A stretch of DNA of 64,000 nt, taken from Naegleria gruberi (taxonomy: Eukaryota). The position numbers were made by a program, and so were the translations under genes. Numbering within the stretch: position 1 is the stretch's first letter; every line of letters starts with the position of its first letter. Below are positions 12,131 to 14,108 of this stretch, piece after piece. The notes beneath the pieces are model-generated. The model was not told where the DNA came from. It did not search any database and saw only the letters and a program-made list of their open reading frames with translations. Location of the stretch: the NCBI GenBank assembly GCA_000004985.1, contig GG738898.1; one strand, 5' to 3'.

Positions 12131-12186
12131 TTGCACAAATCACCAATTTGACACTCTACCAAAATGGGTATACTTTTTGTGATTGA
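12131..12186. repeat. copy 2 of the ~50-bp segmental repeat
   Basis: See 9291-9344. On the minus strand this copy encodes the last 16 codons plus the TGA of the BTB-ARL gene. Confidence 0.9.
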
Positions 12187-14108
12187 TAAGGAGTTTAGGA
12201 AAACCCACAGCTTTCTCAACTGTCTGAATTGCCCATTCCAAACCATCAGATAGACCTAGACCAGTAATTGCACAACACGATTGAACATACCATTTTTGCC
12301 TAAATGTATGTAATTTCAGCAGTGAAACCAATTCAACACGACTCATAGATGTAGATATATCTTGTTTGTTAGCAAACACTAGAATAGGACAATTTTTGAG
12401 CTCATCATCTTTGAGTATTCTGTTTAGGTCATCAGTTGCTTCCTGAAGTCTCTGTCTATCATTCGAATCCAGCACGAACAGTATGCAGTCAGTATTGCTC
12501 AAGTAATGTTTCCAAACCTTTTGTGGACTTCGGTTCTTTTCATTCCCGCCAATATCCCACTAGAATTTTAAAAGTAAATTTCAAATATTTTCCAAAAACC
12601 TCAACTTACAATGCAAATTTCAGCAGTGCCACGTTCCAAGGTTTCAACATTGAAGCCAATGGTGGGTGTCTAAACGAAACTAATTAATGAATAGATTAAA
12701 TTTCACTTACAGTAACTCCAGGTTCTCCACTTTTAAATTGGTTTAGAATTGTGGTCTTACCAGATGAATCAAGGCCAAGTAATAGGAATCTAAGCTTTGT
12801 ATTAATATAATTAACCTTTTCAGGAATTTTTTGAATGAGATATTTCTTCCAAAGCTCATCAGGTATGACACGTTCTTTCCTAAACATGTAAATGTGTAAC
12901 AGATCCTGTATCTCTTCAATCAAGCTCTCAAATTGTGGCATTGACTTTCTAATTCCAATAAATATGAGACAGAATGAGTAGAGGATTTCGTAATCACACA
13001 AACTCCAATCATATTTCCTCAATAATCCATATGCATCTTTGAATCTATTTTCAATATCTTGAAGCATCCACATTACTATATATGCCATTTTGTTTCCTTC
13101 CACTTTAGAAAAATGAGGAGAATCTATCAAACCTTCAAATAATTCCAATGGAAGTGATGAAACAATCTTTAACACAGGTACATATAATAGTGCTAATAGT
13201 AATTGAGTTAACTTTTTTGAAATCATGATATTATCAAGGAATGGATAATACTTAATAAGTAATTTTGGATTTTCCATGTATTTCTTTTCATCCTCATCAT
13301 TTGCATATTCCAATTTCTCTCCACGATATACTGTATCAGAAATAACACATGATGAATTATAACCCAACATGTAGCAAACCTTAGGTATGATAATATCCTT
13401 GCAATCAGCTGAAAATTCCAAACATCTGAGTCCAATAGTGAGGGCATTGAATTGATTTACAACTCGTGAAATAGCTCTGATTAAACTTTCAATTTGATAT
13501 TCGTCAGCAATTTTCAATAATTCCAATAAATCTTTCCATCCAATAATTCTTGCATCATTTTCATTGAATAATCGTTTAGAAAGTCCTAACTTTCCTACGT
13601 GAATAAATTCAATCACCATTTCAAAATAATCACACCACGATTTTTCACAATTTTGTAAAGTCATTTCGTTTGATTTCGACTCGGCCATTTCAATATTTAA
13701 CATTGCTTCAAAAACCTTGCTTTCCAACATGATTAATTCTCTAGAAACCAATAATTTCTTTCTAATTTCAGGTATGTGAATTGTAAAATAAATAGTTTCT
13801 TTCTTAGTTTCTAATAGATTAAACTTTTTAATTAGAAAACTATTCTCTGAATCATCATGACATTGCTCAACTTTAAACAAATCATGATAAATTTTCGGAG
13901 AGTTGTTGTTAGCTGATGTCAATTGATCCTCTTCATCTCTCATCAAGTAGTAATACATTGAATTTTGGACCTTTCGAATAGCAACTTCATTGTGTTGGTC
14001 ACTGAAAAAGCCATCTTCCAATCCACTTCCTTCTTTACAGTACCAATGTGACCACGAATCCAATAGAAATTCATCATCATTCATTTTTTCAATTATGAAA
14101 TTGATCAT
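12140..14108 (-). CDS. BTB/POZ-domain protein fused to a C-terminal ARF/ARL-family small GTPase, 3 exons
   Basis: Exons approx. 14108-12711, 12669-12610 and 12559-12140, with 41-nt and 50-nt GTAAGT…TAG introns. The N-terminal part has a BTB-like region (…ESKVFEAMLNIEMAESKSNEMTL…FIHVGKL…LLELLKIADEYQIESL). The C-terminal part has ARF motifs GLDSSGKTTIL, PTIGFNVET, WDIGGNEK, NKQD and CCAITGLGL. Confidence 0.8.

What the first reader, a model, noticed from the sequence alone, without database searches (positions are those of the whole stretch)
12140..14108. BTB/POZ domain fused in one gene to an ARF/ARL small GTPase
A ~430-aa N-terminal region carries a clear BTB core (…ESKVFEAMLNIEMAESKSNEMTL…FIHVGKL…) that is SPOP/Cullin-3-adaptor-like. 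It is joined across two short introns to a complete ARF-family G domain (GLDSSGKTT, TIGFNVET, WDIGG, NKQD, CCAITG). The logic resembles TRIM23/ARD1 (an E3 module plus ARF) but uses a BTB domain instead of RING/B-box. The G domain is internal, so the usual N-terminal myristoyl-Gly switch of ARFs cannot operate. The switch-II residue after DIGG is Asn rather than the catalytic Gln. I do not recall this architecture as characterised.
Basis: partly seen in the sequence, partly recalled or inferred. Interest (0 to 1): 0.6.

Follow-up and report, generated by a model that had tools for sequence, protein, structure and literature searches.

The report
Naegleria BTB–BACK–Arf fusion gene (NgrArf1l)
This is a real, intact three-exon gene of the amoeba Naegleria gruberi that fuses a cullin-3-adaptor-like BTB module to an Arf GTPase; the gene is already annotated and its BTB+ARF architecture was catalogued in a 2021 survey, but nobody has tested what it does.

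Summary
On the minus strand, 14108..12140, three exons separated by 41-nt and 50-nt GTAAGT…TAG introns encode a 625-aa protein. Pfam scores Arf at E=2.4e-54 and BTB at 28.1 bits, above its 20.5-bit cut-off.

The window is Naegleria gruberi NEG-M. The same splice model started at Met9 is exactly RefSeq XP_002672368.1, "ARF/SAR family small GTPase". Vargová et al. 2021 (PMC8358228) list it as NgrArf1l with extra domain "BTB", and their text notes BTB–ARF fusions as TRIM23-like. The architecture is therefore already known, though functionally uncharacterised.

- The N-terminal module is BTB plus a BACK-like helical extension. An AF2 model (pLDDT 81) best matches KLHL11, SPOP and KEAP1, all Cul3 adaptors.
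- The Cul3-binding φ-x-E motif is kept (M141-A-E143).
- An exhaustive search finds the module only in Naegleria and Willaertia Arf fusions, about 15 clusters.
- Most members, including this one (Asn492 plus a 3-residue switch-II insertion), lack the catalytic Gln.
- Comparison with a second strain gives pN/pS 0.18.

Most likely function (inferred): a dimeric Cul3 substrate receptor whose GTP-binding, hydrolysis-impaired Arf domain recruits partners or gates the ligase. Interest is low to moderate.

The parts
12711..14108 (-). Exon 1 (aa 1-466): N-terminal beta-rich region, BTB, BACK-like helical region, linker, and the first ~40 residues of the Arf G domain including the P-loop. RefSeq starts at Met9 (ATG at 14084).
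   Evidence: ORF list and translation. The Met9 version is an exact match to XP_002672368.1.
12670..12710 (-). Intron 1, 41 nt, GTAAGT...TAG. Read-through gives a stop after 4 codons.
   Evidence: The same position is an intron in paralog NgrArf1k (locus L001). The intron is identical in a second strain (L002).
12610..12669 (-). Exon 2 (aa 467-486): switch I and interswitch (TPTIGFNVETLERGTAEICI).
   Evidence: The paralog also has a 60-nt exon here.
12560..12609 (-). Intron 2, 50 nt, GTAAGT...TAG.
   Evidence: One 1-nt indel relative to strain L002.
12140..12559 (-). Exon 3 (aa 487-625 plus TGA): switch II, G4 NKQD, G5 CCAITG, and the C-terminal tail.
13455..13802 (-). BTB/POZ domain (aa 103-218).
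13680..13688 (-). phi-x-E motif M141-A142-E143, the Cul3-contact motif of BTB adaptors. A135 and M136 upstream correspond to KLHL3 A77 and M78.
   Evidence: HMMER alignment to SPOP ...HEMEESKKN.... Motif definition and mutational data in PMC3616122. Kept in 11 of 15 aligned family rows.
12876..13454 (-). All-alpha helical-hairpin region after the BTB (aa 219-411), BACK-like.
12221..12830 (-). Arf-family G domain (aa 427-599; the span includes both introns).
   Evidence: Pfam PF00025 E=2.4e-54. PDB Arf1 E about 2e-49.
12753..12776 (-). P-loop GLDSSGKT (aa 445-452), encoded in the same exon and ORF as the BTB module.
12542..12544 (-). Asn492 at the position of the catalytic Gln71 of Arf1 (WDIGGN).
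   Evidence: Alignments. Kept in the second strain. Role of this Gln in GAP-stimulated hydrolysis: PMC6724607.
12521..12529 (-). Three-residue insertion in switch II (about S497-P498-Q499), unique to this paralog.
   Evidence: HMMER and MAFFT alignments.
14040..14051 (-). Conserved N-terminal S-H-W-Y motif (aa 20-23). Function unknown.
   Evidence: Family alignment.
12158..12166 (-). Conserved C-terminal H-F-G motif (aa 618-620) after the G domain. Function unknown.
   Evidence: Alignment of Naegleria family members.

Best explanation
The feature is the Naegleria gruberi gene for NgrArf1l (XP_002672368.1, UniProt D2VU46). It belongs to a family of BTB-BACK-Arf fusion proteins found so far only in Naegleria and Willaertia.

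Shown here:
- It is a single three-exon gene.
- The N-terminal 410 or so residues fold as a BTB domain followed by a BACK-like helical stack. That is the architecture of Cul3 substrate adaptors such as KLHL11, SPOP and KEAP1.
- The phi-x-E Cul3-contact motif is intact.
- The C-terminal domain is an Arf1-like G domain with all nucleotide-binding motifs. It lacks Gly2 and an amphipathic N-helix, and it has Asn in place of the catalytic Gln plus an insertion in switch II.

Inferred:
- The protein dimerises through its BTB and binds Cul3-Rbx1.
- The Arf domain sits where Kelch or MATH domains sit in other adaptors. It binds GTP but hydrolyses it poorly.
- In that state it either recruits Arf-binding partners for ubiquitylation, or, as proposed for RhoBTB, gates Cul3 access and is itself turned over by the ligase.
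- Signal termination would then be by degradation rather than by GAP-stimulated hydrolysis.
For: Identity and source:
- The Met9 version of the splice model is an exact match to XP_002672368.1.
- Neighbouring ORFs are exact N. gruberi proteins from one 310,422-bp scaffold.
- The accession is listed as NgrArf1l with 'BTB' in PMC8358228. That paper's text links BTB and F-box ARF fusions to ubiquitin circuits.

One gene:
- The P-loop lies in the same ORF as the BTB.
- The same two intron positions occur in paralog NgrArf1k.
- The same BTB-helical-Arf order is seen in homologues from N. fowleri, N. lovaniensis and W. magna.

Adaptor-like module:
- AF2 model with pLDDT 81.4 and pTM 0.82.
- M141-A-E143, A135 and M136 align to the residues whose mutation abolishes KLHL3-Cul3 binding.

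G domain:
- G1, G3, G4 and G5 are canonical, and Thr of switch I is present.
- The switch-II Gln is critical for GAP-stimulated hydrolysis in ARFs (PMC6724607). It is replaced here and in 6 of the 9 family members with a complete G domain that were compared.

Under selection:
- 6 synonymous versus 4 non-synonymous differences from a second strain, pN/pS 0.18, with Asn492 and the insertion kept.

Precedent:
- RhoBTB proteins are GTPase-BTB fusions that assemble Cul3 ligases. An autoinhibition model has been proposed for them (PMC4931677).
Against: - No experiment or transcript was available. Cul3 binding, dimerisation, GTP binding and substrates are all inferred.
- I did not verify that N. gruberi has a Cul3 with the matching H2 and H5 surface.
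- The BTB sequence score is modest, and Pfam BACK is not detected. The BACK-like call rests on a predicted model built from a 14-sequence alignment, with TM-scores of only 0.25-0.36 on the query (0.5 on the target).
- Many BTB domains are oligomerisation modules that do not bind Cul3.
- Asn at the Gln position is not proven to abolish hydrolysis.
- Three family members have lost phi-x-E, so Cul3 binding cannot be universal in the family.
Confidence: 0.55

Rival explanations
1. The BTB-BACK module is only a dimerisation or oligomerisation scaffold and does not engage Cul3. The protein would be a constitutively dimeric, soluble Arf-like switch that clusters effectors or tethers membranes.
Against: The highest-ranking fold matches are specifically BTB-BACK and 3-box Cul3 adaptors. 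The phi-x-E motif and the KLHL3 A77/M78 equivalents are conserved in most members, including across Naegleria and Willaertia. Such conservation is not needed for dimerisation alone.
Confidence: 0.25
2. The Arf domain is itself the substrate. The fusion would be a self-destructing GTPase whose level, rather than its nucleotide state, is controlled by Cul3-mediated auto-ubiquitylation. This is a variant of the best explanation with no external substrate.
For: RhoBTB proteins are themselves substrates of the Cul3 ligase complexes they form (PMC4931677). Loss of the catalytic Gln removes the usual off-switch.
Against: There is no direct evidence. The switch I and interswitch effector-binding residues are well conserved, which suggests that external partners are still bound.
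Confidence: 0.12
3. The fusion is an annotation or assembly artefact, or a decaying paralog (pseudogene), of no function.
For: The window is a draft assembly with runs of N. The gene sits next to a DDE transposase ORF. The catalytic Gln is lost and switch II carries an insertion. No transcript evidence was obtained.
Against: The reading frame is intact over 625 codons with canonical introns. The P-loop is in the same ORF as the BTB. The same architecture occurs in four species and about 15 sequence clusters. An independent contig from a second strain has the same structure, with pN/pS 0.18.
Confidence: 0.04

Closest known systems
NgrArf1j/k/l and NgrArlX2, the Naegleria gruberi ARF-family proteins with a BTB domain (Vargova et al. 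2021, Genome Biol Evol, PMC8358228, Suppl. Table 1)
   Same: This gene is NgrArf1l: it matches XP_002672368.1 exactly from Met9. NgrArf1k (XP_002672337.1) lies on the same scaffold, is 54-56% identical, and has the same two intron positions.
   Different: Nothing differs in identity. The paper records only 'BTB' and classifies the G domain as Arf1 by sequence similarity. It does not describe the BACK-like extension, the phi-x-E motif or the loss of the catalytic Gln. It also does not flag NgrArf1c (XP_002679438.1), which carries the same N-terminal module.
BTB-BACK Cul3 substrate adaptors (KLHL11, KLHL3, KEAP1, KBTBD2, SPOP)
   Different: The substrate-binding Kelch or MATH domain is replaced by an Arf GTPase. 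There is an extra beta-rich N-terminal segment of about 100 residues with a conserved SHWY motif. Sequence identity is only 12-20%. Pfam BACK is not detected. Cul3 binding is untested.
TRIM23/ARD1 (RING-B-box-coiled-coil E3 with a C-terminal Arf domain)
   Same: A ubiquitin-ligase-related module lies N-terminal to an internal Arf domain that cannot be myristoylated. The analogy is drawn explicitly in PMC8358228. TRIM23 is described in PMC6724607.
   Different: No RING, B-box or coiled coil is detected. Any ligase activity here would come indirectly through Cul3-Rbx1. The origins are independent: TRIM23 is a separate group in the 2021 classification, whereas this G domain is Arf1-like and lineage-specific.
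RhoBTB proteins (RhoBTB1-3; Dictyostelium RacA)
   Same: A small GTPase domain is fused to BTB and BACK in one polypeptide. RhoBTBs form Cul3 ligases, are themselves substrates, and are proposed to be autoinhibited by a GTPase-BTB contact (PMC4931677; PMC8305917). Their GTPase domains are also atypical.
   Different: The GTPase is of the Rho family, not Arf, and is N-terminal rather than C-terminal. RhoBTBs have two BTB domains, the first bipartite. There is no homology beyond the shared domain superfamilies.

Membership tests
ARF family GTPase (Pfam PF00025; Arf1-like) | Profile score above the curated threshold | tested here: met
   183.8 bits against a 22.3-bit cut-off, E=2.4e-54, covering 171 of 174 profile positions. 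Best PDB hits are Arf1.
ARF family GTPase (Pfam PF00025; Arf1-like) | G1 (GxxxxGKT), switch I Thr, G3 (DxxG), G4 (NKxD) and G5 motifs | tested here: met
   GLDSSGKT, PTIGFN, WDIGG, NKQD and CCAITG all align to the Arf1 motifs.
ARF family GTPase (Pfam PF00025; Arf1-like) | Catalytic Gln at the start of switch II (Arf1 Q71) | tested here: not met
   The residue is Asn492, and switch II also has a 3-residue insertion. The role of this Gln is described in PMC6724607.
ARF family GTPase (Pfam PF00025; Arf1-like) | N-terminal Gly2 myristoylation and an amphipathic N-terminal helix | tested here: not met
   The G domain starts at about residue 427. The preceding helix 417-428 has a hydrophobic moment of 0.16, against 0.52 for ARF1 residues 2-13, and the linker varies in length across the family.
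BTB/POZ domain (PF00651) | Profile score above the gathering threshold, and the BTB fold | tested here: met
Cul3 substrate adaptor of the BTB-BACK/3-box type | phi-x-E motif in the alpha3-beta4 region | tested here: met
   M141-A142-E143 aligns to SPOP M-E-E and KLHL3 M83-S84-E85. It is conserved in 11 of 15 family rows.
Cul3 substrate adaptor of the BTB-BACK/3-box type | Helical 3-box/BACK extension directly after the BTB | tested here: inconclusive
   The confident all-alpha hairpin region aa 219-411 aligns structurally with KLHL11 and KBTBD2 BTB-BACK. However, Pfam BACK is not detected, and rmsd and TM-scores are mediocre.
Cul3 substrate adaptor of the BTB-BACK/3-box type | Physical binding to the Cul3 N-terminal domain, and a Cul3 orthologue in the organism | not testable with these tools
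The literature search for Naegleria gruberi plus Cul3 found nothing, and the proteome could not be queried by organism.
TRIM23/ARD1 | [quoted passage not shown] | tested here: not met
   No RING or B-box family appears in the Pfam scan at E up to 1. The N-terminal fold is BTB-BACK-like.
RhoBTB | N-terminal Rho-family GTPase followed by two BTB domains | tested here: not met
   The GTPase is Arf-family and C-terminal, and there is a single BTB.
Naegleria/Willaertia BTB-BACK-Arf family (NgrArf1l) | Sequence identity to the catalogued accession, and the shared N-terminal module | tested here: met
   Exact match to XP_002672368.1. The N-terminal profile retrieves only 15 clusters among 1.84 billion representatives. 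All named ones are from Naegleria or Willaertia, and the members scanned with Pfam nearly all carry an Arf domain.

The most novel reading that the evidence does not exclude
The family would be a lineage-specific class of Cul3 substrate receptors in which a GTP-locked Arf domain is the substrate-recognition module. In that reading, Arf effectors, GAPs or membrane-bound partners are ubiquitylated according to nucleotide state. Loss of the catalytic Gln has co-evolved with retention of the Cul3-binding phi-x-E motif: the two full-length members that lost phi-x-E both keep Gln. Degradation would then have replaced GTP hydrolysis as the off-switch.
Probability: 0.25. Interest if true: 0.55.

Novelty: already known. 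Interest (0 to 1): 0.3.

Why it matters
Small GTPases fused to ubiquitin-ligase modules (TRIM23, RhoBTB) are rare natural experiments in coupling a nucleotide switch to protein degradation. Naegleria offers an independent third case, with several paralogs that differ in whether the catalytic Gln and the Cul3-contact motif are kept. That variation makes it a usable comparative system.

The genus includes the pathogen N. fowleri, which has members of the family, so lineage-specific signalling proteins are of some applied interest.

As a discovery, however, the architecture is already in RefSeq and in the 2021 ARF-family survey. The value here is confirmation plus finer annotation, not a new kind of system.

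Tried and rejected
- **Counterpart of the Arf N-terminal helix.** I asked whether the linker helix before the G domain (aa 417-428) could stand in for the Arf amphipathic N-terminal helix and couple the interswitch toggle to the BACK region. I rejected this: its hydrophobic moment is 0.16 against 0.52 for ARF1, which is the 22nd percentile of 12-mers in the protein. The linker also varies greatly in length across the family.
- **First structure prediction.** A two-sequence alignment gave a useless model (pLDDT 33.5). The 14-sequence alignment fixed this.
- **Word-index protein searches.** With the N-terminal region, with a mixed alignment, and with the C-terminal region, these never showed the gene's own RefSeq protein. 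The reason is that its 90% cluster is represented by a 111-aa fragment. The alignment query was also swamped by Arf words.
- **Exact look-ups.** The 625-aa (Met1) model and the 470-aa read-through ORF both failed. Only the Met9 model matched.
- **Neighbourhood look-up.** Looking up the Hsp70 neighbour to obtain the annotated record returned nothing.
- **Transcript evidence.** I hoped contig L002 would be a spliced transcript. It is genomic, with both introns present.
- **AFDB fold search.** The library was unavailable.
- **Literature.** Searches for Naegleria Cul3 and for the accession numbers found nothing in main texts.
- **Deep paralog dN/dS.** I did not attempt this because synonymous sites are saturated at 54% amino-acid identity.
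Full report
**1. What is in the sequence**

Reading 14600..11600 on the minus strand shows a long ORF from an ATG at 14108 that runs to 12696 (470 aa).
- It ends four codons after a GTAAGT.
- Removing 12710..12670 (41 nt, GTAAGT…TAG) and 12609..12560 (50 nt, GTAAGT…TAG) joins three in-frame exons into a 625-aa protein ending at a TGA at 12142..12140.
- The plus strand here carries only short ORFs of at most 83 aa.
- A tblastn of both halves against the whole window finds no second copy.

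**2. Domains**

Pfam results:

| Domain | Residues | Score |
|---|---|---|
| Arf PF00025 | 427-599 | E=2.4e-54, near full-length |
| BTB PF00651 | 103-218 | E=2.4e-6, 28.1 bits (gathering cut-off 20.5) |

- Against the PDB, the C-terminal part matches Arf1 from many species at E about 1e-47 to 2e-49.
- G1 (GLDSSGKT), the switch I Thr (PTIGFN), G3 (WDIGG), G4 (NKQD) and G5 (CCAITG) are canonical.
- The residue aligned to Arf1 Gln71 is Asn492, and switch II has a three-residue insertion.
- The P-loop, strand β1 and helix α1 of the G domain are encoded in exon 1, in the same uninterrupted ORF as the BTB. This alone excludes two separate genes.

**3. Source and identity**

Exact look-ups of neighbouring ORFs identify the window as Naegleria gruberi NEG-M, on a 310,422-bp scaffold:
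- the Hsp70 at 7312-9264 is XP_002672309.1;
- 20224-21999 is XP_002672371.1;
- 39896-41008 is XP_002672373.1.

My 625-aa model is not in the collection. The same splice model started at Met9 (617 aa) is exactly XP_002672368.1 / EFC39624.1 / UniProt D2VU46, "ARF/SAR family small GTPase". The two introns I inferred are therefore those of the RefSeq model.

The earlier word-index searches missed this protein because its 90% cluster is represented by a 111-aa fragment.

**4. Already in the literature**

Vargová et al. [quoted passage not shown]

Their Supplementary Table 1 lists these entries under Naegleria gruberi, each with additional domain "BTB":
- NgrArf1j (XP_002679090.1)
- NgrArf1k (XP_002672337.1)
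- NgrArf1l (XP_002672368.1)
- NgrArlX2 (XP_002675878.1)

The finding is thus NgrArf1l. No paper main text in the library cites the accession, and I found no functional study.

**5. The family**

A profile of the N-terminal 437 residues plus the one close homologue was run against 1.84 billion representative proteins. It found only 15 proteins, 13 of them at E≤1e-10.
- All named cluster members are from N. gruberi, N. fowleri, N. lovaniensis or Willaertia magna. The rest are unnamed metagenome ORFs cut at introns.
- Of the ten scanned with Pfam, eight show an Arf match downstream of the module. One is cut just after the start of the P-loop, and one is a divergent fragment with no Pfam match. 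Most also score BTB.
- The closest homologue is metagenome contig L001, at least 90% identical to NgrArf1k, which lies on the same scaffold. It has introns at exactly the same two positions and a 60-nt middle exon.
- NgrArf1c (XP_002679438.1) is not flagged with BTB in the 2021 table. It nevertheless has the same module (E=8e-36 to the profile; Pfam BTB 21.0 bits).

**6. Fold of the N-terminal module**

With a 14-sequence family alignment, AlphaFold2 gave a confident model: mean pLDDT 81.4, pTM 0.82, and pLDDT 85-97 over residues 190-410. A two-sequence alignment had given pLDDT 33.

The model has three parts:
- a β-rich segment (aa 20-120);
- the BTB core;
- an all-α stack of helical hairpins up to residue 411.

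Fold-search results:

| Method | Top matches |
|---|---|
| Foldseek vs PDB | SPOP (E 6e-5); KBTBD4; KBTBD2-CUL3; KLHL11-Cul3 (about 320 aligned columns); vaccinia A55-Cul3 |

- By sequence alone, the only BTB proteins the PDB search returns are SPOP, below significance (E 0.2-0.5).

**7. Cul3-contact residues**

The SPOP alignment places M141-A142-E143 on SPOP M-E-E. This is the φ-x-E motif.
- In KLHL3 the motif is M83-S84-E85. The φ residue buries the most surface in all three BTB-Cul3 structures available in 2013. A77E, M78V and E85A abolish Cul3 binding (PMC3616122).
- The equivalents here are A135, M136 and E143, all conserved.
- Across the family alignment the M-x-E-[SC] motif is present in 11 of 15 rows. 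It is lost in P0004, P0021 and P0007.

**8. State of the G domain across the family**

| Residue at the catalytic Gln position | Members |
|---|---|
| Gln kept | NgrArf1c; N. lovaniensis XP_044555330; W. magna KAL9655481 |
| Asn | this gene |
| Ala | NgrArf1k |
| Thr | N. lovaniensis XP_044555421 |
| Ser | N. fowleri CAG4709756; N. lovaniensis XP_044551086 |
| Cys | W. magna KAL9655477 |

- The two full-length members that lost φ-x-E both keep Gln. The pattern is suggestive, but numbers are small and the sequences are not independent.
- The helix preceding the G domain is not amphipathic, and the linker length is variable. I therefore found no counterpart of the Arf membrane-insertion helix.

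**9. Selection**

A second genomic contig from the same ENA sample (L002) carries a near-identical allele.
- Both introns are present. One is identical and the other has a 1-nt indel.
- Over 239 codons there are 6 synonymous and 4 non-synonymous differences, giving pN/pS 0.18. Asn492 and the SPQ insertion are retained.
- The counts are small but point to purifying selection, against a pseudogene.

**10. Mechanism**

Shown: a single gene, with a BTB-BACK-like module carrying an intact Cul3-contact motif and an Arf1-like domain that has nucleotide-binding motifs but no catalytic Gln and no lipid switch.

Inferred:
- The protein dimerises through its BTB and docks on Cul3-Rbx1.
- The Arf domain occupies the substrate-receptor position. 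It stays GTP-bound longer than a normal Arf.
- It either brings partners to the ligase, or regulates Cul3 access and its own turnover, as proposed for RhoBTB (PMC4931677).

I put about 0.55 on the Cul3-adaptor reading overall. The alternatives are:
- about 0.25 on a pure oligomerisation role;
- about 0.12 on the self-substrate variant;
- under 0.05 on artefact or pseudogene.

Cul3 in Naegleria was not verified.

**11. Verdict**

The architecture is not new. The gene is annotated, and its BTB+ARF composition was published in 2021 with the same TRIM23 analogy.

This analysis adds:
- the BACK-like extension;
- the conserved φ-x-E motif;
- the restriction of the family to Naegleria and Willaertia;
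- the recurrent loss of the catalytic Gln;
- conserved terminal motifs (SHWY at aa 20-23; HFG at aa 618-620);
- a hint of purifying selection.

Novelty: already known (catalogued, functionally uncharacterised). Interest: 0.3.

Noticed in passing
window 14276-14512 (minus strand), 168 nt upstream of the BTB-Arf start: A stand-alone 78-aa divergent ubiquitin-like gene ending ...LRLLGGSD (Pfam ubiquitin 91 bits; PDB ubiquitin E about 1e-22). Its exact sequence is in the collection only from an ENA metagenome, not under an N. gruberi RefSeq accession. It may therefore be unannotated, or modelled differently, in the genome record.
   Followed up: partly
window 14659-15552 and 15606-16430 (minus strand); 16826-17869 (plus strand): Two tandem paralogous F-box genes (Pfam F-box about 29 bits each; the second is XP_002672370.1 'FBOX domain-containing protein') and an LRR protein lie next to the ubiquitin-like gene and the BTB-Arf gene. 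This makes a local run of ubiquitin-system genes. It may be chance, given how many such genes Naegleria has.
   Followed up: partly
window 10293-11174 (plus strand) and about 11820-12040: An ORF for a DDE_3 (Tc1/mariner-type) transposase (E=2.8e-19) starts only at a GTG. The second-strain contig L002 loses all similarity to the window about 100 nt downstream of the BTB-Arf stop codon (82 matches versus 122 mismatches beyond about 12040). This suggests an insertion or rearrangement polymorphism next to the gene.
   Followed up: partly
window 14084 vs 14108: RefSeq starts the protein at Met9 (ATG 14084), but an in-frame ATG lies 24 nt upstream at 14108. Residues E7 and K8 are conserved in paralog NgrArf1k. 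The true start is undecided.
   Followed up: partly
P0021 = XP_002679438.1 (NgrArf1c), elsewhere in the N. gruberi genome: This protein carries the same BTB-BACK-like N-terminal module (profile E=8e-36; Pfam BTB 21.0 bits, just above the cut-off) but is not flagged with a BTB domain in the 2021 ARF-family table. N. gruberi therefore has at least five such fusions.
   Followed up: partly
window 14040-14051 (aa 20-23) and 12158-12166 (aa 618-620); family alignments A2/A3: Two short motifs lie outside the recognised domains. An N-terminal [ST]-H-[WH]-Y is conserved across Naegleria and Willaertia members. A C-terminal hydrophobic-F-G after the G domain is seen in Naegleria members only. No function is known; they could be intramolecular or partner-docking peptides.
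   Followed up: no
family alignment: The full-length members that lost the phi-x-E Cul3-contact motif (N. lovaniensis XP_044555330 and N. gruberi XP_002679438) keep the catalytic Gln. Six of the seven full-length members that keep phi-x-E have lost the Gln. Numbers are small and not corrected for phylogeny.
   Followed up: partly
loci L001 and L002 (ENA ERZ929261 / ERR1078381, PRJEB11402): A sample labelled as a metagenome contains genomic contigs of a Naegleria gruberi-like strain. L002 is about 98.6% identical to the window over the coding part compared (10 differences in 717 nt). L001 encodes a protein at least 90% identical to paralog NgrArf1k.
   Followed up: no
window about 3430-4400, 31250-32800 and 36700-36900: Long runs of N (assembly gaps) interrupt several ORFs, which shows that the window is a draft scaffold.
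   Followed up: no
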